DNA from: an uncultured Clostridia bacterium
Lineage (GTDB): Bacteria > Bacillota > Clostridia > TANB77 > CAG-465
Reading direction: 5' to 3'
Assembly (NCBI GenBank): GCA_944388545.1
Contig: CALXJE010000040.1
Location: forward strand, 13,938-77,937
DNA: 64,000 nucleotides
The notes beneath the pieces are model-generated. The model was given only the letters and a program-made list of their open reading frames with translations, made no database searches and was not told the origin of the DNA. The position numbers and the translations under genes were made by a program. Of the stretch, positions 4,446 to 40,557 are shown in pieces (within the stretch, counting starts at the first letter, position 1; the number at the start of each line of letters is the position of its first letter).

Positions 4446-5327
4446 TTATATTTTAAATTCTAAACCTATTACTTCATAATATTTATTCTTTTTAAATTCA
4501 AGTATAGAATATTTCATAGATAGTTCTCTTGCCTCTTGAATAACTAATTCATAATTATCATCTGCGTTTAAATCACATGCAAATTTAATAGAATAAACAG
4601 GCCAGTTTATAGAACTTTCGGTATTCTTTACGTAAGAATATTTAATTATTTTACTTTTATTTCCTTGAACATATACAACCACACTATATACTCCAAATTT
4701 ATTTTTTCCAGAAGATGTAGCAGATATTATTCTTGTTTTTTGGTCTGTTCCTAAATACCCCTCATAAACCTCATTTACTTTAACAGTATTATTTAATAAT
4801 CTATATTTGCCTAACGCTTTCTTAATATATTTTTCATCTTCTTTAGATGGTTCTAATTTAGCAAGTTCTCTAATCATTGCATTATTTTCCGATTTAGCAA
4901 TTGCTATATATTCACTATCAGAAACATCCTTTAAAGGTATAGCATAGGTTATTCCTCTTTCTTGATCTTGACTTACAGAATATATTTCAAAAGTTCCCAT
5001 TTTACCAGAGACATTATACATATCTATTTCGGTACCTTTAGTTATATTTGCCTTGCCATACATATTATCTTTGCTAAGCCATTTTCCTTTATCAGACACT
5101 CCTCCTACTACAACGTTATTTATTATTATAGGAGAAACAGAGGAAACTTCTTCACTTTTAACTTTAGATGATGATTTATCTATATATTCTACAGTTATAT
5201 AATTTTGTGTATACACATATATTAAAAATATCGCAGATACTAAAAGTATTACTATTAATAATATAATTAATGGTATCAGCTTTTTATTATTTTTCTTTTT
5301 ATTTACCTTTTTCATATACCTTGCCAC
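4446..5327 (-). CDS. Hypothetical membrane-anchored protein (single N-terminal TM, extracytoplasmic domain)
   Basis: ORF with K-rich N-terminus plus hydrophobic helix LIPLIILLIVILLVSAIFLIYVY. No recognisable catalytic motif. Packed between thrS and queH with short gaps. Confidence 0.5.
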   Translation of the reverse strand: MARYMKKVNKKKNNKKLIPLIILLIVILLVSAIFLIYVYTQNYITVEYIDKSSSKVKSEEVSSVSPIIINNVVVGGVSDKGKWLSKDNMYGKANITKGTEIDMYNVSGKMGTFEIYSVSQDQERGITYAIPLKDVSDSEYIAIAKSENNAMIRELAKLEPSKEDEKYIKKALGKYRLLNNTVKVNEVYEGYLGTDQKTRIISATSSGKNKFGVYSVVVYVQGNKSKIIKYSYVKNTESSINWPVYSIKFACDLNADDNYELVIQEARELSMKYSILEFKKNKYYEVIGLEFKI

Positions 5328-5878
5328 CTTCCTTCATCTATAGAATATATACAGCCACAATATTTTTGTCTATACAACCCTAGCTCTCTTGCTTTATTTT
5401 GTCCTTCTCTAAATAATGGTCTATAGTCTCTATACATGAATTCAACATTATATTTATTTGCTAGTTTGCTACATACTTTCTTTATTAAATCATGTTTTTG
5501 ATATGGACTTATTAAAAGTGTAGTAGTTACATGGGTATACCCATTTTCTTTTGCATATTCAAATACTTTTTCAAGTCTTGAAGTATAACAATATTCACAC
5601 CTTAATTTAAATTCTGTTTTATCTATATTAACTACATCATATATAAATTTATTCATATCATACTCATCTAACACAATAGGTTTTTTGCCCATTTTAGATA
5701 TATATGATATATATGTATCTTTTCTTTTTTCATATTCTACTTTAGGATGAATGTTAGTATTATACCATATAGTATCAAAACTATCTATATTTATTTCATC
5801 CATATTATTTATTGTATCATCATATACTGCCACCATACATGGCGCACAACATGCATGAATAAGTAATTTATTCTTCAT
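5312..5878 (-). CDS. queH: Epoxyqueuosine reductase QueH (DUF208)
   Basis: N-terminal [10 protein letters not shown] and C-terminal CEYCYTSR...YCGCIYS cysteine motifs typical of QueH. Confidence 0.75.
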
Positions 5879-6875
5879 ATTTTACCCCCATGTGATAATA
5901 AGCTAATTTTGTTGCAACCCTACCCCTAGGGGTTCGATTAATAAATCCAATTTGCATAAGATATGGCTCATAAACATCCTCTATTGTATCTTTATCTTCA
6001 CCAATTGCAGCCGCCATAGCTTCAAGTCCTACAGGTCTTCCTCCAAATTTATCAATCATTGTCATTAAAATTTTTCTATCTATATCATCTAACCCATATT
6101 CATCAATCTCTAATCTATTTAATGCATCGTGCGCTATTTCATAGTCTATACTATTACTTGATTTATTTGTTGCAAAGTCTCTTACTCTTTTAAGAAGCCT
6201 ATTTGCAATTCTAGGAGTGCCTCTACTTCTGCTTCCGATTTCTAACGCTGCTTCATGCGTTATATCTATATTTAATATTCCTGCACTTCTTTCTATAATA
6301 GTTGCAAGTTCTTTTTCATCATACATACTTAATCTATGTATAATACCAAATCTATCACGAAGTGGCCCTGATAATGAACCTGCTTTTGTTGTTGCTCCTA
6401 CAAGTGTAAATTTAGGAAGATCAATTCTAATTGATCTTGCAGAAGGGCCTTTTCCAATCATTATATCAAGGTTAAAATCCTCTAATGCTGGATATAACAC
6501 TTCTTCTACACTTTTTTTAAGTCTATGTATTTCGTCAATAAATAACAAATCATTTTCTTCTAAATTTGTAAGTATTGCAGCCAAATCTCCTGGTTTTTCT
6601 ATCGCAGGTCCTGATGTTATTTTTATATTAACTCCCATTTCTGATGCTATTATACTTGCAAGAGTCGTTTTACCAAGTCCTGGTGGTCCATAGAGCAGAA
6701 CATGATCTAGCGGTTCTTTTCTAGTAAGAGCTGCATCAATATATATTTTCATATTTTCTTTAACCTTAGTTTGTCCAATATATTCCGAAAAACTTCTAGG
6801 TCTAAGATTTATTTCTACTTCTGGTACATCTATCTCCTCATCATATTCAGGAGATATTACTCTATCTTCAATCAT
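5868..6875 (-). CDS. ruvB: Holliday junction branch migration ATPase RuvB
   Basis: [12 protein letters not shown]...[14 protein letters not shown] Walker A, sensor and arginine-finger regions, winged-helix C-terminus. Confidence 0.9.
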
Positions 6876-6960
6876 TAGTCTTCTCCTTACATTTTAACGT
6901 ATAAATTATACCACTAATATATATATTAATGCAACTTAAAAAGAGAATATATTACAAAAA

Positions 6961-6998
6961 ATATGAGACTACAAATTAATGTAGTCCCATATTTTTTC
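6961..6998 (-). terminator. Rho-independent terminator downstream of the ClpN-AAA-M41 gene
   Basis: Minus-strand reads ATGGGACTACA-TTAATTT-GTAGTCTCAT (one mismatch) followed by a U-run. Confidence 0.45.
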
Positions 6999-7047
6999 TG
7001 TGTTTAACTAACAAAGTTTATTTTATAGCACTTTTTATTTAGGTTCT

Positions 7048-9093
7048 TTACACTTGCAAAAAACATTCTAATTCTTCAGATGTGACTATTTTCTTTTTCA
7101 TAAGATATTTTGCCATACTTTCTATCTCACTCCAATGATCAGTCACAAATTGTTCAGTTTTGTCATATACCTTTCTAATAAGATCATTTGCTTTTTCATC
7201 AATTTTTATTGCAAGCTTTTCATTAAACAAATCATCGTCTAAAAGATAAATATTTTTGTATTCATCATCATCCATACCAAATTCTGCTATAACACTTTTA
7301 GCAAACTTTTTGGCTTTTTCTAAATCAGACGATGCTCCACTATCTATTCTTTTAGAAATTCTCTGTTGCGCTACTCTTCCTGCAAGTAGAGACATAATAT
7401 ATGCCTCTGCATACTCATGATCTATAGATATTATAGTATCTCTTTTTTCTAGCACATTAACTCCAAGATAATCGGCAGAAGGGATTATTGATATAGCTGT
7501 AACCTTATGAGCTTCATTTTCTTTTGTAAGTCTAGTAACAATATAATGTCCTATTTCATGGTAAGCAGTACAAAGCAAAGTATGTTTATCACACTTTATT
7601 TGTTTTTCAAAAAGTTCCTCATATACTTTGTTTACATCTTCTTTTGATGTTAACTTCTTACCTTTCATTTTAGCTATAGCCATACTTCTATCACAAAGAT
7701 CAAGCGTCTTGTCAGGATTACAGTTATCTGAATTAAAGCAACTTGAGCACAGAATAATATAATCGACTAGTTTGCTGGGTATTCTTACACCATGATACTT
7801 TTCCATGCTTTTTATTTTTGCTTTAATCATTCCTTTTACTTCACTTATTTTAGGTTCTTTTATTATTATAACCTCAAACCGTCTTTTAAAGGCGCCATCT
7901 CTTGATAGAATTTGGTTATATTCGTTTGTAGTTGTTGCGCCAACGAACACTACATCGTCTCTAGAAAGAATAGGCTTTAAAGATCCACTAAGATCAACAT
8001 TTCCTTCTGATGTTCCTCCTGCACCAAGCATTTGATGCATCTCATCAACAAATAGTATAATATTAGGTGTGTTCTCAAGAAATTGCTTTAAGATAGTCAC
8101 CTTAGTTTCAAATTCTCCTCTGTACTTAGTTCCTGCTACCATAGCATTTACATCCAGTGATAGCACAGTATAATTGTAGAATTCCTTTGGTGCTGTTTGA
8201 TTTACTATATGCTGTGTTATTGCCTCTATAATCGCTGTTTTACCTACTCCTGGCTCACCAACTAGTACTGCATTTCTCTTAGTTTTTTTAGAAAAGATGT
8301 TAAATGCCTTAAATATTTCTTTATCTCTACCTAGTATAGTACATTCTTCTCCTTTTTCATACTTGTTATTTAATACTTCAATACAAGATTCTAATGAAGG
8401 AGGAACAACTATCGGAAGAATTTCACTAGCTTCTGCATCAAGGATATTTGCGCCTAATTTAATACTTGATATGAATTCTTCTATATCTATTTGCATCTGT
8501 TTTAAAAGAAAGCTTAAAAACTTATATGCGCTACTTTCTTTATTTTTCAAAATACAATATAGAAGAACATTCAAATCAATGTAATCAAGACCCATAGCCC
8601 TGCATGTTTTTGATGCATCTTCGAGAGCCATCTCTAATTTATCAGAATAAAGCAATTCAATTATGCAATCATTAATTTCAAAGTTTTCTGCATCAGCAGT
8701 CACCTCTATTATTCCACTTAATACCTTAAGAACTTTACTTGCAATTTCATCATCTTCTGATAAATTAAAGTCAGAACATTTTAATAATGGTTCATTTTCT
8801 TCTTCCTCTGTTTCTTCATTAACAGTTTGGTCAAAGTAAGTATCAGCTGCTTCTTTTCCAAATATTTCTTCGTATATTTCTCTACTATTTAATATCTGAA
8901 AAACATCTGCTACAAGTGCAATTCCCATATCCAAAAAAAATTGTGTTATAATTGATTCTTGATTATTAAGAGCAGCAAATAATACATATGCGCTCCTTAC
9001 TTTTTCATCATCAAATTCGTTGGCAATAACTGTTGCAACCTCAAATGCTCTCCGAACCTCAGCGCTAACTTTAGCTTCATTCCAATTACTCAT
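7048..9093 (-). CDS. Soluble AAA+ protease: Clp-N domain + single ClpA/ClpC D1-type AAA+ module + FtsH-type M41 zinc peptidase domain
   Basis: N-terminal Clp_N-like repeats. Walker A LVGEPGVGKTAIIEAI, Walker B ILFVDEMHQM, sensor RDGAFKRRFEVI (all ClpA D1-like). C-terminus TAYHEIGHYIV...HKVTAISIIPS...LLAGRVAQ...GASSDLEKA aligns with FtsH TAYHEAGHA/HKVTIIPRG/LGGRxAEE/GASNDI. No TM segments. Confidence 0.7.
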   Translation of the reverse strand: MSNWNEAKVSAEVRRAFEVATVIANEFDDEKVRSAYVLFAALNNQESIITQFFLDMGIALVADVFQILNSREIYEEIFGKEAADTYFDQTVNEETEEEENEPLLKCSDFNLSEDDEIASKVLKVLSGIIEVTADAENFEINDCIIELLYSDKLEMALEDASKTCRAMGLDYIDLNVLLYCILKNKESSAYKFLSFLLKQMQIDIEEFISSIKLGANILDAEASEILPIVVPPSLESCIEVLNNKYEKGEECTILGRDKEIFKAFNIFSKKTKRNAVLVGEPGVGKTAIIEAITQHIVNQTAPKEFYNYTVLSLDVNAMVAGTKYRGEFETKVTILKQFLENTPNIILFVDEMHQMLGAGGTSEGNVDLSGSLKPILSRDDVVFVGATTTNEYNQILSRDGAFKRRFEVIIIKEPKISEVKGMIKAKIKSMEKYHGVRIPSKLVDYIILCSSCFNSDNCNPDKTLDLCDRSMAIAKMKGKKLTSKEDVNKVYEELFEKQIKCDKHTLLCTAYHEIGHYIVTRLTKENEAHKVTAISIIPSADYLGVNVLEKRDTIISIDHEYAEAYIMSLLAGRVAQQRISKRIDSGASSDLEKAKKFAKSVIAEFGMDDDEYKNIYLLDDDLFNEKLAIKIDEKANDLIRKVYDKTEQFVTDHWSEIESMAKYLMKKKIVTSEELECFLQV

Positions 9094-9497
9094 AATTTTT
9101 TATGCCTCCTTATACATTAATTAACGTTAAATTAAACCTCATTTTATGCTGAGATTATACCTCCGGCCTCTGCAAAAGTCAATCTTTTTTATAAATGAAG
9201 TAGCATCTAATTTTTTTTTACATATAATATAGTATCTAATATGTATTATCGTATTAGAAATTATAGTATATGGTGGGTTTAATGTATCTTAATTCAGTTC
9301 TTAGAAATTGTTTATGGTGCCTACCTTGGAAATTACCATATGGTAACGGACATTATGCTACTGGGTGTGATCTAGTCTTACTATCTAATATGATATGTAT
9401 AGAACAATGTCTTACTAACTTCTCCTGTAATTTACTTGGCTGTGCACCAAATAATGCCCCCTGTGTGCTAAATGGCCATAGAAAGGAGAAAAAAGAA

Positions 9498-9677
9498 ATG
9501 TCTCAAGGATTTAACAATTGGGGTCATGGCAAAAATAATTGCTGCTGTCAATGTTGTCAATGTTGCGAATGCTGCCAATGTTGTTGTGAATGTTGCGAAA
9601 AAGAAGAGCATAAACCAAAATGCGCTACTTTAAAAGTTTGCATTGAAAAAGAAGAAAAAAAAGACGATTGCTGCTAG
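9498..9677 (+). CDS. Cysteine-rich microprotein (59 aa, about 18 Cys in CC/CCC runs)
   Basis: Strong RBS GAAAGGAGA 8-9 nt upstream of ATG 9498. Product MSQGFNNWGHGKNNCCCQCCQCCECCQCCCECCEKEEHKPKCATLKVCIEKEEKKDDCC. An in-frame upstream extension to 9270 exists but lacks a comparable RBS. Confidence 0.55.
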   Translation: MSQGFNNWGHGKNNCCCQCCQCCECCQCCCECCEKEEHKPKCATLKVCIEKEEKKDDCC

Positions 9678-9710
9678 ACCTTAGTTAAAACGCCAAAACA
9701 ATTAAGCTAT

Positions 9711-9735
9711 GTGCAAATGTTTTTTACATTTGCAC
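9711..9735 (+). other. Perfect 10-bp stem / 5-nt loop hairpin after the Cys-rich ORF (no U-tract)
   Basis: GTGCAAATGT-TTTTT-ACATTTGCAC. Not a canonical intrinsic terminator because the 3' flank is not U-rich. Confidence 0.4.
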
Positions 9736-9882
9736 TACATACCCATCTAATTATATTATATATTTATTACATATTTATTTCGTATTTTCTATTTAAGTTT
9801 AATATATAGCTTTTTCCTTGTGTTTTCACAAGATATATGCTATACTTACCATGTTAGACTTAATTGTTTTAAGGGGGATTTT

Positions 9883-11166
9883 ATGGATAAAATAATTATT
9901 GATGGTCCATGTAGATTATCTGGTGAAGTAACTATTAGTGGTGCAAAAAATGCTGCTGTTGCAATACTTCCTGCCACTTTACTTGTAAATGGAAAATGCC
10001 ATCTTGAAAACGTACCCGATATTAGTGATATTAGGGCTACTATAAAAATATTAAAATCTTTAGGTTCTAAAGTTGAATATATAACAAGAAATGAACTAAT
10101 TATAGATAATTCAAATATAACTACTGTAGAAGCTCCATACGATTTAACATGTAAATTTAGAGCTTCCTATTATCTTTTAGGTGCTTTAATAAGTAGATTT
10201 GGTAAAGCACAAATAAGTCTTCCTGGCGGTTGTAATTTAGGAGCAAGACCAATTGATCAACATATTAAAGCTTTTGAAAAACTAGGGGCAACAGTTGAAG
10301 TAAAAAGAGGAAACGTTTATGCTAGCACTAAAAATAAACTTTCTGCTGGAAATATATTTTTTGATGTAGTAAGTGTGGGGGCAACTATTAATGCTATTTT
10401 AGCAGCCACATTAGTCCCTGGAACTACTACAATTGAAAATTGTGCAAAAGAACCGCATGTAGTTGATGTTGCAAATTTTTTAAACTCTATGGGTGCTAAT
10501 ATAAAGGGAGCTGGAACTGATGTTATTAAAGTTACTGGCGTTGAAGCTTTAAAACAATCTTCAAGCTATGCTGTTATTCCAGATCAAATAGAAGCAGGTA
10601 CTTTTATGGTTGCTGCCGCTATAACTAAAGGTAATATACTTATTAAAAATTGCATACCAAAACATATGGAACCTATTACTGCTAAACTTCAAGAAGCAGG
10701 TGCTGAAGTTACTGAATTTGAAGATACAATCAGAGTATCAATGAATGATACTCCTAGACCTATAAATATAAAGACAATGGCGTACCCTGGTTTTCCCACA
10801 GATATGCAACCTCAAATATGTACACTAATTGCTATCTCCAAAGGAACAGGTATGATTATAGAAAGTATTTGGGAATCTAGATTCCAATATACTGATGAAC
10901 TAATTAAAATGGGAGCTGATATAACTGCTCATGGAAGAACAGCTATGATTAAAGGTGTAGACACTTTATATGGATGTCCGGTTGCCTCTCATGATTTAAG
11001 GGCTGGTGCTGCTATGATTTTAGCAGGTTTAGTAGCTCATGGAAGAACTGAAGTATATAATGTTCACCACATTGAAAGAGGTTATGAAAATATAGTAGAT
11101 AAGTTTAAGAAATTAGGTGCTAAAATAGAATTTGTTAGAGATAATGGACGTGATGAAAATGTTTAA
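9883..11166 (+). CDS. murA: UDP-N-acetylglucosamine 1-carboxyvinyltransferase
   Basis: RBS AAGGGGGA followed by ATG 9883. MDKIIIDGPCRLSGEVTISGAKNAAV...; conserved catalytic-cysteine region LPGGCNLGARPID. Confidence 0.9.
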   Translation: MDKIIIDGPCRLSGEVTISGAKNAAVAILPATLLVNGKCHLENVPDISDIRATIKILKSLGSKVEYITRNELIIDNSNITTVEAPYDLTCKFRASYYLLGALISRFGKAQISLPGGCNLGARPIDQHIKAFEKLGATVEVKRGNVYASTKNKLSAGNIFFDVVSVGATINAILAATLVPGTTTIENCAKEPHVVDVANFLNSMGANIKGAGTDVIKVTGVEALKQSSSYAVIPDQIEAGTFMVAAAITKGNILIKNCIPKHMEPITAKLQEAGAEVTEFEDTIRVSMNDTPRPINIKTMAYPGFPTDMQPQICTLIAISKGTGMIIESIWESRFQYTDELIKMGADITAHGRTAMIKGVDTLYGCPVASHDLRAGAAMILAGLVAHGRTEVYNVHHIERGYENIVDKFKKLGAKIEFVRDNGRDENV

Positions 11167-18180: not shown

Positions 18181-18924
18181 TTACAAATTAAATTCATAGT
18201 TAATAATAGATATTAAATTTAAACTAGCTGTTTCTGCTCTTAAAATATTTTTTCCTAGACTTACTTCATATATATTATTGATACTTTTTAATATGTCAAT
18301 ATCTGATTTATCAAATCCTCCTTCTGGACCTATAACTATACCTATAGAGATTTTGCTATTTGCTTTTGATGATACATTTTTTAATATTTCTTTTAAATTA
18401 TTATTACTATTTTCATAAGCTAATATAATATAGTCGTTAGTTAATAACTCTTTTTTAAACGCATCTTCCTTTATATTAAATATACTATTTATTTTTACTA
18501 CATCATCTCTTCCACATTGTTTTGAAGCTTCAAGTGATATCTTATTTAATCTTTCTATCTTTTTAGATTTATCATTATTATCTAATTTAACTACGCAATT
18601 TTTGGATAAAAAAGGAACTATTTTATTTATTCCAAGTTCGACGGCTTTTTGTACTACATATTCCATCTTATCTGCTTTTATATATGATTGATATAAAGAA
18701 AGAGCAACTGCATTTTCATGTTTACTTTCTTCTATATCATCAATTATCCCACTTAAATGATGTGCATCTAATTCTTCTATTTTAACAATATATTTGTTTA
18801 TTTTTATTAAATCACCTTTTTTATGACGTAAAACATTAATGTGGTGTATTTCATCACCCACCACACTAATGTTATTACCATCTATATTTATATCATTATT
18901 ATCTATAAAAAATCTTCTTGCCAT
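18181..18924 (-). CDS. rsmE: 16S rRNA (uracil1498-N3)-methyltransferase RsmE
   Basis: MARRFFIDNN... N-terminus, PUA-like domain plus SPOUT C-terminus (GPEGGF). Start taken at MARRFF. Confidence 0.8.
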   Translation of the reverse strand: MARRFFIDNNDINIDGNNISVVGDEIHHINVLRHKKGDLIKINKYIVKIEELDAHHLSGIIDDIEESKHENAVALSLYQSYIKADKMEYVVQKAVELGINKIVPFLSKNCVVKLDNNDKSKKIERLNKISLEASKQCGRDDVVKINSIFNIKEDAFKKELLTNDYIILAYENSNNNLKEILKNVSSKANSKISIGIVIGPEGGFDKSDIDILKSINNIYEVSLGKNILRAETASLNLISIINYEFNL

Positions 18925-20075
18925 TACTTTTTCTCCCAAAAACTTTTCTTTTTATTTACTTCTTCATTAGAAGCTTCCGCAAATCTTCTAAGTGATTCTT
19001 TTTGTTTGTCGTTAAGTTTCTTAGGAACTTCAATTTCTACTTTAAATTCTAAATTTCCTCTAACATGCGATCTCATGCTAGGAACACCTTTATTCTTTAT
19101 CGTAAATGTAGTTCCTGGTTGTGTACCCTCAGGTATATTAAACTCATAATCTCCTTCTAGCGTTGGAACATTAATCTTTCCTCCTAAAGTAGCTTTTACA
19201 AAAGGAATACTTACATCTAAACATATATCATTTCCACGTCTTCTAAATATTTTATGTGGCATTACTGTAACTACAACAAACAAATCTCCTGCAGGACCAC
19301 CTTTCCTTCCTGCATCTCCTTCTGAGGTTAAAGATATTGCTTGACCATTATCTATACCTTTTGGTATATTAATCTCTATTTTTCTAGTTTTTCTTACAGT
19401 ACCATTACCTGAACAAGTTTCACAAGGACTTGGATTATATTTACCTTCTCCGCCACATTTTTCACAAGTTTTTACTGTTGAAAATGAACCCATAATAGTA
19501 TTTTGAGTTACTTGAATTCTACCTGTTCCATTGCATTCATCACATTTAACTTCTGTTGTACCTTTTTTAGCACCTGAGCCATGACAATCTGGGCACGTTT
19601 CATTTCTTGTAATATTTATTTCTTTTGAACAACCAAAAACTGCTTCTTCAAAAGTAAGTTTCATATTATATCTTAAATCAGCTCCCTTTGTTGGACCCTT
19701 CTTTTTACGAGCAGATCCAAATCCTCCAAAAGAGCCCCCAAATACACTTCCTAAGATATCATCTAAATCTATATCAAATCCCATACCACCTGATGAAAAT
19801 CCAGAGAAATCAAATCCTCCCGCTCCTGCAGATCCAAATCCTCCATTTTCAAATCCGTGACCAAATCTATCATATTGTGCTTTTTTAGTTTCATCAGATA
19901 ATACACTATATGCTTCACTAGCTTCTTTAAATTTTTCTTCAGCCGCTTTTTTATCATCACCTGTATAGCTATCCGGATGAAATTCTTTTGCTTTTTTTCT
20001 ATAGGCTTTTTTTATTTCTTCTGGAGTAGCATTTTTAGAAACTCCTAATACTTCGTAGTAATCTCTTTTACTCAT
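18924..20075 (-). CDS. dnaJ: Molecular chaperone DnaJ
   Basis: J-domain with HPD (KEFHPDSY), G/F-rich region, four CxxCxGxG zinc-finger repeats. Confidence 0.95.
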   Translation of the reverse strand: MSKRDYYEVLGVSKNATPEEIKKAYRKKAKEFHPDSYTGDDKKAAEEKFKEASEAYSVLSDETKKAQYDRFGHGFENGGFGSAGAGGFDFSGFSSGGMGFDIDLDDILGSVFGGSFGGFGSARKKKGPTKGADLRYNMKLTFEEAVFGCSKEINITRNETCPDCHGSGAKKGTTEVKCDECNGTGRIQVTQNTIMGSFSTVKTCEKCGGEGKYNPSPCETCSGNGTVRKTRKIEINIPKGIDNGQAISLTSEGDAGRKGGPAGDLFVVVTVMPHKIFRRRGNDICLDVSIPFVKATLGGKINVPTLEGDYEFNIPEGTQPGTTFTIKNKGVPSMRSHVRGNLEFKVEIEVPKKLNDKQKESLRRFAEASNEEVNKKKSFWEKK

Positions 20076-20166
20076 ATATATTTCCTTTCTTAATAATCAG
20101 GCGGGAAAGATATATCCCTACCCGCCTAAAAACTAATTTGAATATCTATTATATATTATTAATAAA

Positions 20167-21996
20167 TTATTCTTTTGTGTCATCTTCTACTTTATAATCG
20201 GCATCATGTACTACATTTTCTGCACCTTCTGCAGTTTCCCCTGCCTGCTGACCTGCAGCTGCTTGAGCTTCTGCATATAGTTTTTGAGAAATTTCATAGA
20301 ATATCTGTGTTAATTTTTCACTAGCTGATTTTATTGCTTCAACATCTGTTCCTTCTAAAGCTTTCTTTACATTTTCTACTTCTACTTCTACTTTTGATTT
20401 TTCTTCTGCAGAAATTTTTCCGTCTAATTCTTTTAATGTTTTTTCTGTATTATATACTAATGAATCAGCATTGTTTCTAACTTCAACTTCTTCTTTTCTC
20501 TTCTTATCTTCTGCAGCATGAGCTTCTGCTTCTTTAACAGCTTTATCAATTTCTTCTTCAGTAAGATTTGTACTTGCTGTTATTGCTATTTTTTGCTCAT
20601 TATTTGTAGCCATATCTTTAGCTGAAACATGCACTATACCATTTGCATCTATATCAAAAGATACTTCAATTTGTGGTACTCCTCTTGGAGCTGGTGGAAT
20701 TCCTGTCAAACTAAATCTTCCTAAAGTTTTGTTATATGCGGCTATTTCTCTTTCTCCTTGAAGCACATGAACTTCTACCGATGTTTGGCCATCTGCTGCT
20801 GTTGAGAATATTAGTGATTTTTTAGCTGGTATTGTAGTATTTCTTTCAATAAGTTTTGTAAATACTCCACCATAAGTCTCTATTCCAAGTGATAGAGGTG
20901 TTACATCAAGAAGCACTAAATCTTTAACTTCTCCTGTAAGTACTCCTCCTTGTATTGCAGCACCTATTGCTACACACTCATCAGGATTTATTCCTTTATA
21001 TGGTTCTTTACCAGTTATTCTTTTTACTGTTTCTTGTACTAAAGGTATTCTTGTAGATCCACCTACTAGTAATATTTTATCTATTTTATCAAATGTTAGT
21101 CCTGAATCTTTTATTGCTTGATTTACAGGTCCCACTGTAGATTCTACTAAATCACCGATTAGTTCTTCGAATTTAGCTTTTGTTAATACAATATCTAAAT
21201 GTTTTGGTCCTGTACTATCTGCAGTTATAAATGGAAGGTTAATCTGAGCTTGTGCAACTGAAGATAATTCAATTTTAGCTTTTTCTGCTGCTTCTTTAAG
21301 TCTTTGCATAGCCATATTATCATTTGATAAATCTATTCCATTATCTTTTTTAAATTCTGCTACTAAATAGTCTATAATTCTATTATCAAAGTCATCTCCA
21401 CCTAGTTTATTATTACCAGCTGTAGATAATACTTCGAACACACCATCACCAATGTCTAGAATTGATACATCAAATGTTCCTCCACCTAAGTCATATACCA
21501 TTATTTTTTGGTCTCCATCTTTGTCTAGACCATAAGCAAGTGATGCTGCAGTTGGTTCATTTATAATTCTAAGAACTTCAAGACCTGCTATTCTACCAGC
21601 ATCTTTAGTTGCCTGTCTTTGAGAATCACTAAAGTAAGCTGGAACTGTGATAACTGCTTGCGTTACAGTTGTTCCTAAATAGCTTTCTGCATCTGCTTTT
21701 AATTTTTGAAGTAACATTGCTGATATTTCTTGTGGTGTATATTCTTTATCATCTATTTTTACTTTTCTATCAGATCCCATATCTCTCTTTATAGAGATAA
21801 CAGTTCTGTCATGATTAGTAACTGCCTGTCTTTTTGCAACTTGACCTACTAATCTTTCCCCATTTTTTGCGAATGCAACTACAGATGGAGTTGTTCTTGC
21901 TCCTTCTGAATTAGGGATTACTGTTGGTTCGCCGTTTTCAATAACTGAAACACATGAATTAGTTGTTCCTAAATCAATTCCTATAACTTTTGACAT
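20167..21996 (-). CDS. dnaK: Molecular chaperone DnaK (Hsp70)
   Basis: [19 protein letters not shown], full Hsp70 length, acidic C-terminus. Confidence 0.97.
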
Positions 21997-22085
21997 AATA
22001 AATTCCTCCTATTAATACTTCATTTTTTTATTATATGTAAGCTTTTATATAATTTAAATATATTATATAAAAGAGTTTACCTTAA

Positions 22086-22661
22086 TTAATTTGCAACTTT
22101 GACCATTGCATGTCTAATAACTTTATCTTTTATTTTGTATCCTTTTCTAAATATTTCGACTATTTCTTTTTCTCCATATTTATCATCTTCTAAATGCATA
22201 ACTGCTTCATGAAACATTGGGTCAAATTCTTTGCCAATACACTCTATTTCTTCTACGCCATACTTTTTAATTACATCTTTTATTTGAGAATATATCATTT
22301 CCATTCCGGTTTTAAATTTTTCATCTACACATTCATGAGTTAATGCATTTTCAAAATTATCTAATATTGGCAATAAATCTTCAACTATTCCTGCTACTAT
22401 AACTTTATGTAATGATTCTTTTTCCTTAGAAATCCTCTTTTTATAGTTATCGAAATCTGCCATATTACGTTTTAAAGAATCATAGTATTCATCTGCCAAC
22501 TTCCTTTGTTCCATTAAATCATTATTTAATTTTGCTATATATTCATCCGCCTTATCAGCAGTTAAATTTTTTTGAGGTCCAGTTTTTTCCTCTTTTTGTT
22601 CTTCTTCAATATTTTGAATATCTTCTTCTAAGATTTCTTTATCTTCTTTCTTGGCTGCCAC
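22086..22661 (-). CDS. grpE: Nucleotide exchange factor GrpE
   Basis: Coiled-coil N-terminus, GrpE core ...FDPMFHEAV... Confidence 0.9.
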   Translation of the reverse strand: MAAKKEDKEILEEDIQNIEEEQKEEKTGPQKNLTADKADEYIAKLNNDLMEQRKLADEYYDSLKRNMADFDNYKKRISKEKESLHKVIVAGIVEDLLPILDNFENALTHECVDEKFKTGMEMIYSQIKDVIKKYGVEEIECIGKEFDPMFHEAVMHLEDDKYGEKEIVEIFRKGYKIKDKVIRHAMVKVAN

Positions 22662-23697
22662 CTTCTACATCCTCCTCATTTTTACTAAATATATTTTTTA
22701 ATTTATTATTAACATATTTTAAAGTAGCTATAGCTTTTGCATAATCAGTTCTTTTAGGTCCTAAAACTGCTAATTTAGTGTTAACATTTAAATTATCCAT
22801 ATCAAGAGATATGATACTATAGTCTTTTAACAACACATCATGATGCTCACTACCTATAACTATTGAAACATCATCTTCTTTTATTTTTTCCATAACTTCG
22901 TTTATTATCTCTTTAGTACTAAGTATGTTAAGTAGTTCTTTCATTTTATCTGTATTAGAAAATTCAGGTATATCAAGTAATGATTTTATATCTGTTTTTA
23001 CATTATTTGGCGAATCTTCTTTTATTTCATAATTAAGAGAGACTGCCAGTGCACTTAATATATCAGAAAATTTATTAAGTTGATTATTTATTGCTGAGCT
23101 TAATACATTAGGTAAACTCTCAAGTGGAGTTCCTTTTAAATTCTGATTAAGTAATTTATTTAACTCATCTATTTTATCTTCCGGTACTGTATCTGTTATT
23201 TTTATTATTACATCTTTTACTGTTCCTGATTTAGACATTAGTATTATAAGAAGAATTTTATCAGAAACTTTAAGAATTTTTACATTTTCTATTACATCTT
23301 TATTCTCTATGTGAAGTACAGCAGGTAAATTTAATACCTTTGATATAACATTTGCTGCATTTTCTAATGTTGCTTCTATACTACCATAACTTACTATATT
23401 ATTATTTATATAATCTATATCTACCATTGTAAGTATATTTTCCTTCATAAGGTTATCAACATAGTATCTATACCCTTTAGTTGAAGGAACTCTACCTGCA
23501 GATATATGTGGTTGTTCTAAAAGTCCTATTTCTTCTAGCTGTTTCATTTCATTTCTTATAGTAGCAGAGCTAAATTCTCTTTCATATTTTTCAGCTATGG
23601 TTTTAGATGCTACAGGCTCTGCAGATTCAATATAGTTTTCAACAATTGTAGTAAGTATCTTTTTTTTCCTCTCATCTAAATTCATATGCATCACCAT
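22639..23697 (-). CDS. hrcA: Heat-inducible transcription repressor HrcA
   Basis: MNLDERKKKILTTIVENYIESAEPVAS... Gene order hrcA-grpE-dnaK-dnaJ. Start may be at the internal MNLDE (23685). Confidence 0.9.
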   Translation of the reverse strand: MVMHMNLDERKKKILTTIVENYIESAEPVASKTIAEKYEREFSSATIRNEMKQLEEIGLLEQPHISAGRVPSTKGYRYYVDNLMKENILTMVDIDYINNNIVSYGSIEATLENAANVISKVLNLPAVLHIENKDVIENVKILKVSDKILLIILMSKSGTVKDVIIKITDTVPEDKIDELNKLLNQNLKGTPLESLPNVLSSAINNQLNKFSDILSALAVSLNYEIKEDSPNNVKTDIKSLLDIPEFSNTDKMKELLNILSTKEIINEVMEKIKEDDVSIVIGSEHHDVLLKDYSIISLDMDNLNVNTKLAVLGPKRTDYAKAIATLKYVNNKLKNIFSKNEEDVEGGSQERR

Positions 23698-39359: not shown

Positions 39360-39920
39360 CTATTTTTTTACTTTCTTTCTATCTACTTCATTATTTGCTT
39401 TTATAGGAGCAAATATGTGAACTACGCTACCTACAAAGTACATTATTTCATTGCAATTATCTATTGCTTTCTTCTTTCCAATTGCTTTACCACCCACTGT
39501 CAACGATGCTACAACGCCTCCTACAACAAGTGTAATTATAAATGTATTAATACCAAGTGTATTACTTAAAGTAACAGATATAAGGGCAGAAAGTGAACCA
39601 CTAACTATACCACATACATCACCTACTACGTCATTACATATACTGGTAACTTTTTCTTTAGAACGTATAAGTTTAATAGTTTCTTTTGCGCCTTTGTGTT
39701 TTTTAGCTGCTTTTGCATGAAATGGAGCTTCTTCACAAGTTGCAACTGCCATTCCTATCATATCAAAAAATATTCCTATACCAATTATAACAATTAATAC
39801 TAGGAACGCTATAACTATATTAATTTTACTTAGTAGTGCGTTAGATACTCCATTAAATATTATTGAAAGCATAAATGTAATCACAAATGTTTTAATAATC
39901 CATTTATTACTATCTTTCAT
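39360..39920 (-). CDS. oapA: OLE-associated protein A-like 4-TM membrane protein
   Basis: 186 aa, about four TM helices, DxxxD motif (NDVVGDVCG, D97/D101). Lies immediately downstream of and co-oriented with the large ncRNA region. Confidence 0.6.
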   Translation of the reverse strand: MKDSNKWIIKTFVITFMLSIIFNGVSNALLSKINIVIAFLVLIVIIGIGIFFDMIGMAVATCEEAPFHAKAAKKHKGAKETIKLIRSKEKVTSICNDVVGDVCGIVSGSLSALISVTLSNTLGINTFIITLVVGGVVASLTVGGKAIGKKKAIDNCNEIMYFVGSVVHIFAPIKANNEVDRKKVKK

Positions 39921-39960
39921 TTTACCTCATCATTTCTATTTATACTATATATGTTATGGC

Positions 39961-40521
39961 AATATACTAAGTAAATTTTGCGGCTTAAGGTCAAGTTGGA
40001 TTTCCCCGATCGTTACTACTAGTTACCTTATAGCGGTTTCCCTTTAAAACAATCGACTAATAGTCACCTGATTAGTTACTCGATTACCACTGAGACCACA
40101 CTTCAATCCTTAATATATCAACATTATATGTTACAGTCTAGAGGTTTTCCCTAACAAAACTTAAACTATCTTTATCCGCTTTTGCAAATATAATTTCAAG
40201 AAACAGATATATAATCCACATGGCCTAAGAGGATTATATATGAACTTTCTATCCCGTATATTCACTCACGACAGGCTACAATATATATAGTACTCTCTAT
40301 ATATATGGTTACGTTTTAAATAGAGAAATAACTTAAAACGTGAGCTGAAAAAAAGGCAGTGCTTTTGTATGCCATTACAAATCCACCTTAATTTCTAAAA
40401 ACTCATACATACACCCCAGTCTGGGCGACCAAAGCATATATACAAGCCGCTAATATGTGCCTTTTAATGGATTTTTAGGCCCATCTTCAAATAGTGTTTT
40501 GACTAGAATACTGCGCCATAC
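39961..40521 (-). ncRNA. Large structured non-coding RNA, candidate OLE (ornate large extremophilic) RNA
   Basis: About 560 nt with no ORF in any frame. Locally higher GC than the flanks. Its own consensus sigma-A promoter on the minus strand. Immediately upstream of the oapA-like gene. Ends are approximate. Confidence 0.55.
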
Positions 40522-40528
40522 AACATAT

Positions 40529-40557
40529 ATTATACCATTTTAAAATAAAATAGTCAA
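40529..40557 (-). promoter_or_regulatory. Sigma-A promoter driving the ncRNA
   Basis: Minus strand TTGACT (40557-40552), 17-nt spacer, TATAAT (40534-40529). Confidence 0.7.

What the first reader, a model, noticed from the sequence alone, without database searches (positions are those of the whole stretch)
7048..9093. Cytosolic chimeric AAA+ protease: Clp-N domain + one ClpA-D1-type ATPase module + FtsH-type M41 metallopeptidase
The N-terminal 150 aa look like the double-repeat Clp-N substrate/adaptor-binding domain. The AAA+ module has ClpA/ClpC D1-type Walker A/B and sensor motifs. The C-terminal 200 aa align motif-for-motif with the FtsH zinc peptidase (HEIGH, HKVT.I.P, LAGR.AQ, GASSDL). 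There are no transmembrane helices and no second (D2) AAA+ ring. This architecture would make a self-compartmentalised, soluble FtsH-like protease with Clp-type substrate recognition, independent of ClpP. It is not a textbook protease family.
Basis: seen in the sequence. Interest (0 to 1): 0.65.

Follow-up and report, generated by a model that had tools for sequence, protein, structure and literature searches.

The report
Soluble Clp-FtsH hybrid protease gene
This gene encodes a soluble, single-chain, ATP-driven zinc protease that joins the front half of a Clp unfoldase to the cutting domain of the membrane protease FtsH; the design is widespread in low-GC, mostly gut-associated bacteria known only from metagenomes, and I found no published description of it.

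Summary
ORF 7048..9093(-) encodes a 681-aa protein with four parts:
- a very divergent double-repeat Clp-N domain, split by a disordered acidic insert of about 55 residues;
- one ClpA/B/C D1-type AAA+ module with the Clp-specific lid (AAA_lid_9);
- a complete FtsH-type M41 peptidase;
- no transmembrane helix, no D2 ring and no M-domain.

Catalytic residues are intact. Across 84 representatives, the Walker A glycines/lysine, H512/E513/H516 and D590 (which aligns with the third zinc ligand of T. maritima FtsH) are invariant. Walker B, sensor-1 and the Arg fingers are at least 90% conserved.

The protein is not an assembly artefact. About 100 clusters at the 50%-identity level share the D1+M41 core, and their D1 modules form one clade in a rough tree. 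All family loci have 25-34% GC, and many come from human or rabbit gut samples.

The gene is a stand-alone unit with a near-consensus σA promoter and its own terminator. Its neighbours are not conserved.

No curated family model reaches its cut-off, no source names any member, and I found no paper on it. A lead to the σG-controlled C. difficile gene CD0684 was tested and rejected.

Most likely it forms a hexameric, ClpP-independent cytosolic metalloprotease. Its substrates and physiological role are unknown.

The parts
7048..9093 (-). Complete ORF, 681 aa: the Clp-N / D1 AAA+ / M41 fusion protease.
   Evidence: ORF list. An identical protein, P0001, is found on independent contigs.
9154..9182 (-). 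σA-type promoter: TTGACT, 17 nt, TATAAT (11 of 12 consensus matches), about 60 nt upstream of the ATG.
   Evidence: Best promoter-like site in 5000..10000. An equivalent promoter lies 80-122 nt upstream in about a dozen non-redundant family loci.
9105..9111 (-). Ribosome-binding site AAGGAGG, 11 nt before the ATG.
   Evidence: Read directly from the sequence.
8830..9081 (-). Clp-N repeat 1 (about residues 5-88).
   Evidence: Pfam Clp_N hit at 23-59, sub-threshold at 19.2 bits. Profile hits to ClpC/ClpB N-domains. Foldseek match to ClpC N-terminal domains.
8659..8829 (-). Acidic, poorly conserved, disordered insert between the two Clp-N repeats (about residues 89-145).
   Evidence: pLDDT below 50 for 90-145 in both models. 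Variable length and acidic composition in alignment A1.
8446..8658 (-). Clp-N repeat 2 (about residues 146-216).
   Evidence: Aligns to ClpC residues 73-145 and to Hsp104 N-domain residues 67-147. pLDDT 81-94.
7849..8373 (-). D1-type AAA+ large subdomain (about residues 241-415). Walker A 279-286 is at nt 8236-8259, pore loop KYRG 323-326 at nt 8116-8127, and Walker B 346-351 at nt 8041-8058. Sensor-1 is T387/T388 and the Arg fingers are R404/R405.
   Evidence: Pfam AAA. ClpB/ClpA NCBIfam matches. 30-37% identity and rmsd about 3.5 Å to ClpC/ClpA/ClpB D1. Conservation.
7603..7848 (-). Clp-specific AAA lid (AAA_lid_9, about residues 416-497). No M-domain is inserted, and the lid runs straight into the peptidase.
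   Evidence: Pfam AAA_lid_9 at 420-494, present in 71 of 73 representatives. Four helices in the model.
7051..7602 (-). FtsH-type M41 zinc peptidase (about residues 498-681). HEIGH 512-516 is at nt 7546-7560 and GASSDL 586-591 at nt 7321-7338, with D590 as the third zinc ligand.
   Evidence: Pfam M41, 94.3 bits. The family profile matches T. maritima FtsH at 3.5e-34 over the whole protease domain; H512, H516 and D590 align with His423, His427 and Asp500.
6951..6993 (-). Intrinsic terminator: a GGGACTACA...TGTAGTCTC hairpin followed by a T-run, between the protease gene and ruvB.
   Evidence: ruvB has its own TTGCAT, 17 nt, TATAAT further downstream (read).

Best explanation
The gene encodes a soluble, autonomous, ATP-dependent zinc metalloprotease of a distinct and uncharacterised family.

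**Shown**
- The chain consists of a divergent Clp-N head, a single Clp/Hsp100 D1-type AAA+ module with its own lid, and an FtsH-type M41 peptidase with a complete HExxH + Asp zinc site.
- It has no membrane anchor, no D2 ring and no M-domain.
- It is a conserved, monocistronic gene with a σA-type promoter.

**Inferred**
- By analogy with FtsH and with Clp D1 rings, six chains form a two-tier hexamer. The D1 ATPase ring sits on a ring of M41 domains that encloses the proteolytic sites.
- The N-domains on top select substrates or adaptors.
- The KYRG pore-1 loops pull the unfolded chain through the D1 pore, using ATP hydrolysis, into the M41 chamber, where it is cut.
- ClpP is not needed, because the peptidase is covalently attached and the ClpP-docking D2 ring is missing.
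- The likely role is cytosolic protein quality control or regulated turnover during growth. The substrates are unknown.
For: **Domain architecture.**

**No TM helix.**

**Catalytic residues.** G279/G282/G284/K285, H512/E513/H516 and D590 are invariant in 84 representatives. D350/E351, T387/T388 and R404/R405 are at least 90% conserved. Selection bias is small: only 1 excluded full-length representative lacks HExxH.

**Third zinc ligand.** D590 aligns with Asp500 of T. maritima FtsH.

**FtsH-like arrangement.** D1+M41 superposes on AFG3L2 over 494 columns (TM 0.44 normalised to the query, 0.60 to the target). It also superposes on an E. coli FtsH model (0.47 and 0.49).

**A real family.**
- More than 120 clusters of 90% identity match at 38-67% identity; most are full length.
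- About 100 clusters of 50% identity have the D1+M41 core.
- M41 and AAA are present in 73 of 73 representatives, and AAA_lid_9 in 71 of 73.
- The D1 modules form a single clade in an NJ tree.

**Expression unit.** A near-consensus σA promoter and an intrinsic terminator flank the gene in the window and in about a dozen non-redundant loci.

**Chromosomal and single-copy.** There is no copy on 72,556 plasmid records or 50,697 phage records, and no paralogue in the window.
Against: - Nothing here shows activity, oligomeric state or substrates. No multimer model could be run.
- In two-ring Clp proteins the D2 ring is usually the main motor (my own knowledge), so a D1-only motor may be a weak unfoldase.
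- The N-domain is so divergent (8-14% identity) that Clp-like adaptor or substrate binding cannot be assumed.
- 23 of 83 representatives could not be linked to this N-domain by iterated profiles.
- Gene context is not conserved, so it gives no functional clue.
- The full-length model is only of moderate confidence (mean pLDDT 75.8, pTM 0.56, 17-sequence alignment).
Confidence: 0.72

Rival explanations
1. It is an ordinary FtsH paralogue whose membrane anchor was missed or lost, so it is functionally just FtsH.
For: The M41 domain matches FtsH end to end. NCBIfam FtsH_fam gives a partial hit.
Against: - There is no hydrophobic segment.
- The ATPase is Clp D1-type, not FtsH-type: ClpB/ClpA models score 242 and 231 bits, against 94.7 for FtsH_fam, whose cut-off is 600.
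- The lid is AAA_lid_9.
- The pre-Walker-A motif is Clp-like ILGRDKEI, not DVAG.DE.
- The N-terminus has the Clp-N fold.
Confidence: 0.02
2. It is an assembly, frameshift or gene-calling chimera that joins a truncated clpC-like gene to an ftsH fragment.
For: None beyond the unusual architecture.
Against: - The same full-length architecture, with a conserved junction, occurs in hundreds of independent assemblies from NCBI, ENA, JGI and Logan.
- The identical protein occurs on three contigs.
- The junction region is conserved (NPDKTLDLCDRSMA ... TAYHE.GH).
Confidence: 0.01
3. It is mainly an unfoldase, disaggregase or remodelling machine. The M41 domain would serve chiefly as a hexamerisation platform or have only a limited trimming role, much as FtsHi pseudo-proteases keep the fold without the chemistry.
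For: - The D1 module and N-domain are those of the ClpB/ClpC/Hsp104 family.
- The human-gut subgroup sits immediately upstream of groES-groEL.
- One representative, P0142, lacks HExxH.
Against: - HExxH and the Asp ligand are invariant in 84 representatives, which argues for selection on catalysis.
- There is no M-domain of the kind ClpB/Hsp104 use to couple to Hsp70.
- The groESL adjacency is not an operon. The protease gene has its own terminator, and groES has its own promoter and CIRCE element.
Confidence: 0.1
4. It uses the same protease mechanism but is a dedicated regulatory protease for one or a few specific substrates (for example a sigma/anti-sigma factor or a sporulation protein), not a general quality-control enzyme.
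For: - The N-domain is highly diverged and family-specific.
- A distant subgroup (the P0270 group) is followed by an ECF-type sigma factor gene in both contexts shown, although the upstream genes differ.
- Several host genomes carry sporulation genes nearby: SpoIVB in L085, CtpB-like and CotF in L088.
Against: - In the window and its close relatives there is no conserved partner gene.
- The promoter is σA-type, with no forespore or mother-cell signature found.
- The only literature lead to sporulation control, C. difficile CD0684, turned out not to belong to this family.
Confidence: 0.25

Closest known systems
FtsH / AFG3L2 / YME1 (M41 AAA+ metalloproteases)
   Same: - The AAA+ module is fused directly to a C-terminal M41 peptidase.
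- The motifs AYHE.GH, SI.P, LAGR and SGA..D are shared, and the zinc ligands align.
- Both ATPases belong to the classic AAA clade (my own knowledge).
- The ATPase-over-peptidase arrangement superposes as one body.
   Different: - It has no transmembrane helices or extracytoplasmic domain.
- The ATPase is Clp D1-type with AAA_lid_9, not the FtsH AAA with AAA_lid_3.
- The pore loop is KYRG instead of the FtsH aromatic-hydrophobic-Gly loop.
- It has a Clp-N head.
- NCBIfam FtsH_fam scores 94.7 against a cut-off of 600.
ClpC / ClpA / ClpB / Hsp104 (class I Clp/Hsp100 unfoldases)
   Same: - It has a double-repeat N-domain fold.
- It has a D1 module with Walker A/B, the KYRG pore loop, GATT sensor-1, RR arginine fingers and AAA_lid_9. 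Identity is 30-37% and rmsd about 3.5 Å.
   Different: - It has no D2 ring, so no ClpP-docking loop.
- It has no M-domain.
- The peptidase is covalently attached.
- The N-domain is split by an acidic insert of about 55 residues and shares only about 10% identity.
- The ClpB/ClpA equivalog models score 242 and 231 bits against cut-offs of 1232 and 993.
Lon (a single-chain soluble AAA+ protease)
   Same: The general logic is the same: a substrate-binding N-domain, one AAA+ ring and a protease, all in one soluble polypeptide. This is a comparison from general knowledge and was not tested.
   Different: The ATPase clade (HCLR) and the protease (Ser-Lys dyad, S16) are unrelated. No Lon model scored meaningfully: LonB has E = 0.0033 over the P-loop only.

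Membership tests
FtsH (TIGR01241 FtsH_fam; membrane-anchored M41 AAA+ protease) | N-terminal transmembrane helices flanking an extracytoplasmic domain | tested here: not met
   The highest 19-residue Kyte-Doolittle score is 1.63, in a segment containing two Asp. The N-terminus has the Clp-N fold.
FtsH (TIGR01241 FtsH_fam; membrane-anchored M41 AAA+ protease) | FtsH-type AAA module, with the whole protein reaching the family cut-off | tested here: not met
   FtsH_fam scores 94.7 bits against a cut-off of 600, and PRK10733 scores 48.6 against 1008. The lid is AAA_lid_9.
FtsH (TIGR01241 FtsH_fam; membrane-anchored M41 AAA+ protease) | M41 peptidase domain with HExxH and an Asp as third zinc ligand | tested here: met
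   PF01434 scores 94.3 bits against a cut-off of 29.9. H512, H516 and D590 align with His423, His427 and Asp500 of T. maritima FtsH.
Class I Clp/Hsp100 (ClpA, ClpB, ClpC) | Double-repeat Clp-N domain | tested here: met
   Met by fold: all top 50 Foldseek hits are Clp-family N-domains, with target-normalised TM-score up to 0.76. By sequence it is only marginal: Pfam 19.2 bits against 20.7, best profile hit 2e-4, hhalign E = 0.0033.
Class I Clp/Hsp100 (ClpA, ClpB, ClpC) | D1 AAA+ module with AAA_lid_9 | tested here: met
Class I Clp/Hsp100 (ClpA, ClpB, ClpC) | Second (D2) AAA+ module, carrying the ClpP-docking loop in ClpA/ClpC | tested here: not met
   There is a single Walker A. The chain passes from the D1 lid directly into M41. 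The equivalog models are far below their cut-offs.
Class I Clp/Hsp100 (ClpA, ClpB, ClpC) | Phospho-arginine / adaptor-binding residues of the ClpC N-domain (the Glu of the GTEH motifs; from memory) | tested here: inconclusive
   In the HMMER alignments GTEH corresponds to RSAY in repeat 1 and to DLNV in repeat 2 (DLD. in most relatives). The alignments are of low confidence, and the role of these residues is recalled from memory, not checked.
Self-compartmentalised hexameric AAA+ protease (functional class) | Hexameric ring assembly with an enclosed proteolytic chamber, and ATP-dependent degradation | not testable with these tools
   No multimer prediction or experiment was available. It is inferred from conserved catalytic residues and from homology to FtsH and Clp rings.

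The most novel reading that the evidence does not exclude
This may be a further, so far uncharacterised class of bacterial AAA+ protease alongside ClpXP, ClpAP/CP, HslUV, Lon and FtsH. It would be a soluble, single-ring, D1-driven M41 metalloprotease that arose once by joining a Clp N+D1 half to an FtsH peptidase. It has since diversified in uncultured low-GC gut and anaerobe lineages, including tandem-D1 variants and a subgroup adjacent to a sigma factor gene. If it is active on its own, it would show that a Clp D1 ring alone can power processive degradation, and that the M41 chamber does not need a membrane.
Probability: 0.55. Interest if true: 0.7.

Novelty: new variant of a known kind. Interest (0 to 1): 0.58.

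Why it matters
**Place among known proteases.** Bacterial energy-dependent proteolysis is usually described with a handful of machines. Here two of them are recombined: the substrate-facing half of a Clp unfoldase with the peptidase of FtsH, released from the membrane.

**Questions it opens for AAA+ mechanism.**
- It is a natural experiment on whether a D1 ring alone can drive unfolding and translocation.
- It tests how an M41 chamber works without a membrane anchor.
- Its highly diverged Clp-N head raises the question of what that domain recognises.

**Microbiome biology.** One subgroup is common in human gut metagenomes. One cluster has 720 member sequences, and most of the 21 loci retrieved come from human gut assemblies. 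Yet no member inspected carries a source name or a UniRef source, so a probably abundant proteostasis enzyme of uncultured gut Firmicutes is effectively unannotated.

**Practical use.** A compact, soluble, single-gene ATP-dependent metalloprotease could also be a convenient model system or tool.

Tried and rejected
1. **C. difficile CD0684.** This "ATP-dependent peptidase, M41 family" gene is σG-dependent and its protein is found in spores (PMC3789822; bioRxiv 10.1101/598045), so it looked like a characterised orthologue.
   - I rejected the link. The published qRT-PCR primer for CD0684 encodes DVAGLD. As I recall it, that is the canonical FtsH motif ahead of Walker A.
   - It occurs in none of 207 family-like proteins, which have the Clp-type ILGRD.E there instead. 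The sporulation data therefore cannot be transferred.
2. **Genome-collection scan with the full-length alignment.** The tool chose D1 motifs shared by all Clp proteins. 79 of the 80 loci were ClpB/ClpC-type genes and only L001 was a member.
4. **Heat-shock operators.** No CIRCE or CtsR box lies upstream of the gene. The CIRCE element found belongs to the downstream groES.
5. **Forespore-type promoter search.** Nothing convincing was found.
6. **Leader RNA.**
   - The window leader is not significantly structured (z = 0.29).
   - It has no Rfam match.
   - The gut-subgroup leader gave only chance-level hits.
7. **Anti-phage defence.** PADLOC gives only weak generic P-loop hits: IetA at 1.6e-5 and mad8 at 3.5e-4.
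8. **Mobile elements.** No member was found on plasmid or phage records.
9. **Literature.** Six searches found no description of the fusion.
10. **Source names.** Two cluster look-ups (20 proteins) and the 120-row hit table returned no usable protein name.
Full report

Yes. The ORF lies at exactly 7048..9093 on the minus strand and encodes 681 aa.

- **Pfam:** Peptidase_M41 at residues 507-676 (94.3 bits, cut-off 29.9), AAA at 276-408, and the Clp/Hsp100-specific AAA_lid_9 at 420-494.
- **NCBIfam:** residues 145-495 match ClpB (1.4e-71) and ClpA (2.3e-68). FtsH_fam reaches only 94.7 bits against a cut-off of 600, and no curated full-length model comes near its cut-off.
- **PDB sequences:** the best match is S. 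aureus ClpC residues 73-427 (6.4e-56). FtsH chains match at about 1e-14.
GEPGVGKT 279, ILFVDE 346, KYRG 323, HEIGH 512, HKVTAISIIP, LLAGRVAQQ and GASSDL 586 are all present.
- **No TM helix:** the most hydrophobic 19-residue window scores 1.63 and contains two Asp.
- **No paralogue:** the window holds no second M41 or D1-type gene.

**2. The N-terminal domain**

This was the weakest point of the finding.

- Pfam Clp_N is sub-threshold in this protein (19.2 against 20.7 bits).
- It is detected in only 6 of 73 family representatives.
- A profile of the N-region (alignment A4) finds about 37 Clp/Hsp104 N-domains among 41 weak PDB hits. Both halves (about 5-62 and about 122-209) hit Clp-N repeats, but the best E-value is only 2e-4.
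- hhalign against a Bacillus ClpC N-domain gives E = 0.0033.

The fold settles the question. In an AlphaFold model of residues 1-232, the two repeats have pLDDT 75-94 and residues 91-144 are disordered. All 50 top Foldseek PDB hits for that model are Clp-family N-domains: ClpC, ClpC1, ClpA, ClpD, ClpT, Hsp104 and ClpV. The alignments span both repeats (about 207-211 columns for the top hits), with target-normalised TM-score mostly 0.5-0.76 against isolated N-domain structures and 8-14% identity.

The head is therefore a real but extremely diverged double-repeat Clp-N. It is split by an acidic, variable, disordered insert of about 55 residues.

The Glu of the two GTEH motifs of ClpC corresponds to Ala in repeat 1, and to Asn in repeat 2 (Asp in most relatives). 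From memory, those residues are needed for phospho-arginine binding. I would not assume ClpC-like recognition.

**3. The motor and the peptidase**

- **Full-length model.** Mean pLDDT is 75.8. It matches ClpC/ClpA/ClpB/Hsp104 over N+D1 (E down to 6.5e-25; 30-37% identity and rmsd about 3.5 Å over about 265 columns). Its D1+M41 part superposes as one body on human AFG3L2 (TM 0.44 normalised to the query, 0.60 to the target) and on an E. coli FtsH model (0.47 and 0.49).
- **Junction.** The lid has four helices with no M-domain inserted, and it leads directly into the HExxH helix.
- **Peptidase.** A profile of the C-terminal region matches T. maritima FtsH over the entire protease domain (3.5e-34). 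H512, H516 and D590 align with chain positions that correspond to His423, His427 and Asp500. I recall those as the zinc ligands of that structure.

**4. It is a family, not an artefact**

- **Word-indexed search.** More than 120 clusters of 90% identity match at 38-67% identity. Most are full length, and nearly all carry the same precomputed Pfam architecture.
- **Exhaustive search of 1.84 billion representatives.** About 100 clusters at the 50% level match through both D1 and M41. 83 of them are full length with a P-loop and HExxH.
- **Conservation in 84 and 73 representatives.** The Walker A residues G279/G282/G284/K285, H512/E513/H516 and D590 are invariant. D350/E351, T387/T388 and R404/R405 are at least 90% conserved.
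- **Selection bias.** I had selected on HExxH and Walker A, so I checked the excluded representatives. Only one full-length representative (P0142) lacks HExxH, and four distant ones have an atypical P-loop.
- **Domain content.** M41 and AAA are found in 73 of 73, and AAA_lid_9 in 71 of 73.
- **N-domain spread.** Iterated profiles link the N-domain of 60 of 83 representatives to this one, and the search had not converged.
- **Origin.** In a rough neighbour-joining tree of D1 modules (254 columns, midpoint-rooted, no bootstrap), the 93 modules directly followed by HExxH fall in one clade of 100. The other 7 leaves are five short proteins (230-438 aa, probably truncated), the HExxH-less member, and the first module of a tandem-D1 variant. 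All 54 other D1-type modules, from proteins with no adjacent M41, fall outside. This is consistent with a single origin of the fusion.

**5. Transcription unit and context**

In the window:
- A TTGACT, 17 nt, TATAAT promoter at 9182..9154(-) is the best σA-like site in the region.
- It is followed by a leader of about 54 nt and an AAGGAGG ribosome-binding site.
- A hairpin with a T-run at about 6993..6951(-) separates the gene from ruvB, which has its own promoter.

In other loci:
- The same layout recurs in about a dozen non-redundant family loci: a near-consensus σA promoter 80-122 nt upstream and an intrinsic terminator within about 70 nt downstream.
- Two exceptions: in L110 the promoter-like site is only 30 nt upstream of an uncertain start codon, and in three near-identical gut loci my one-mismatch pattern found no promoter.
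- No CIRCE, CtsR box or convincing forespore promoter precedes the gene.

Neighbours are not conserved:

| Member | Neighbouring genes |
|---|---|
| Window / L081 | ruvB-queH downstream |
| P0026 | uppS upstream, recG downstream |
| P0080 | trmB upstream |
| P0109 | scpA upstream, groES-groEL downstream |
| P0114 | veg upstream, groES-groEL downstream |
| P0270 group | ECF-type sigma factor gene downstream |
| P0135 | a long tRNA-synthetase gene (869 aa, tRNA-synt_1) downstream |

The groESL adjacency in the human-gut subgroup is not an operon, because groES has its own promoter and CIRCE element.

**6. Where it occurs**

- All family loci have 25-34% GC.
- The one locus with a taxon label is an uncultured Clostridia bacterium from rabbit gut (L001).
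- Most of the 21 metagenome loci retrieved with a family-specific C-terminal alignment come from human gut assemblies.
- Some hosts carry sporulation genes nearby: SpoIVB, CtpB-like and CotF.
- The window itself carries an OLE RNA.
- No plasmid or phage record holds a member.
- None of the roughly 130 clusters inspected has a source-given name or a UniRef source. This points to mostly uncultured lineages.

**7. What is known**

Six literature searches found no description of a Clp-N/D1/M41 fusion.

The one promising lead was C. difficile CD0684, which is σG-dependent and spore-associated (PMC3789822; bioRxiv 10.1101/598045). I rejected it. Its qRT-PCR primer encodes DVAGLD, which I recall as the canonical FtsH motif. 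That motif is absent from all 207 family-like proteins. CD0684 is most likely a conventional FtsH-type paralogue.

I cannot exclude a description in literature outside the searchable library.

**8. Interpretation**

*Shown:* the architecture, intact catalytic sites under strong conservation, solubility, the absence of D2 and M-domain, a stand-alone σA-type gene, and a monophyletic and diverse family.

*Inferred:* hexameric two-tier assembly, D1-driven translocation into an M41 chamber, independence from ClpP, and a cytosolic quality-control or regulatory role.

*Main uncertainties:*
- Whether a D1-only ring is a competent unfoldase.
- What the diverged N-domain binds.
- Whether the enzyme is a general or a dedicated protease.

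**9. Verdict**

This is a new variant of a known kind, an AAA+ self-compartmentalising protease built from known modules in an uncharacterised combination. It is present in sequence databases but unnamed, and as far as I can tell unstudied.

Interest is moderate to high for specialists in proteolysis. It is lower in general, because the parts and the probable mechanism are familiar.

Noticed in passing
window 39940..40535 (-): A full-length OLE (Ornate Large Extremophilic) RNA: RF01071, 339.7 bits, E = 3.9e-96. A 186-aa ORF lies immediately downstream at 39360..39920(-) and was not examined. As far as I recall, OLE RNA fits an anaerobic Firmicute host.
   Followed up: no
window 9270..9677 (+), likely true start at 9498: An extremely Cys-rich small ORF lies divergent from the protease gene. 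From an internal ATG with a good RBS it would be 59 aa with 18 Cys (CCCQCCQCCECCQCCCECC...). It has no Pfam match, and no comparable ORF lies beside other family members. It could be a metal-binding peptide; its function is unexplained.
   Followed up: partly
window 18924..23697 (-): dnaK is at 20167..21996 (HSP70, 827 bits). The flanking ORFs have sizes and order that fit hrcA-grpE-dnaK-dnaJ. Only dnaK was checked. The cluster lies about 11 kb from the protease gene.
   Followed up: partly
P0103 / P0128 (L113 5001..7772): A 923-924-aa family variant has a weak Clp_N match, two tandem D1-type AAA modules and one M41 domain. In the NJ tree its first module nests inside the family clade. P0238 (1335 aa) has four P-loops and an HExxH.
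   Followed up: partly
L111 / L112 5001..8907: In a distant subgroup (the P0270 group, 700 aa, seen on many contigs) the protease gene is followed by an ECF-type sigma factor gene (Sigma70_r4_2) and a 388-aa ORF in both contexts shown. The upstream context differs between them (AbiE toxin-antitoxin and TnpV genes in one, a group II intron reverse transcriptase in the other). This suggests a possible link to sigma/anti-sigma control in that subgroup only.
   Followed up: no
L082 8001..10483; L088 6001..10128; L090-L102: In the human-gut subgroup (P0109 has 720 member sequences) the gene lies directly upstream of groES-groEL, whatever the upstream neighbour (scpA or veg). The two are separate transcription units. 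The leader carries a 5' stem-loop (z = -2.3, and -1.9 in L103 with a different sequence) and a 22-nt perfect AT palindrome before the RBS. There is no Rfam match.
   Followed up: partly
window 9113..9131 (-): A near-palindrome, TTAATTTAACGTTAATTAA, lies in the leader just upstream of the RBS of the protease gene. The leader as RNA is not significantly structured (z = 0.29). It could be an operator, or chance in AT-rich DNA.
   Followed up: partly
window 5868..6875 (-): ruvB follows the protease gene without a ruvA immediately upstream, and is followed by a QueH-type gene (5312..5878). ruvB has its own σA-like promoter.
   Followed up: no
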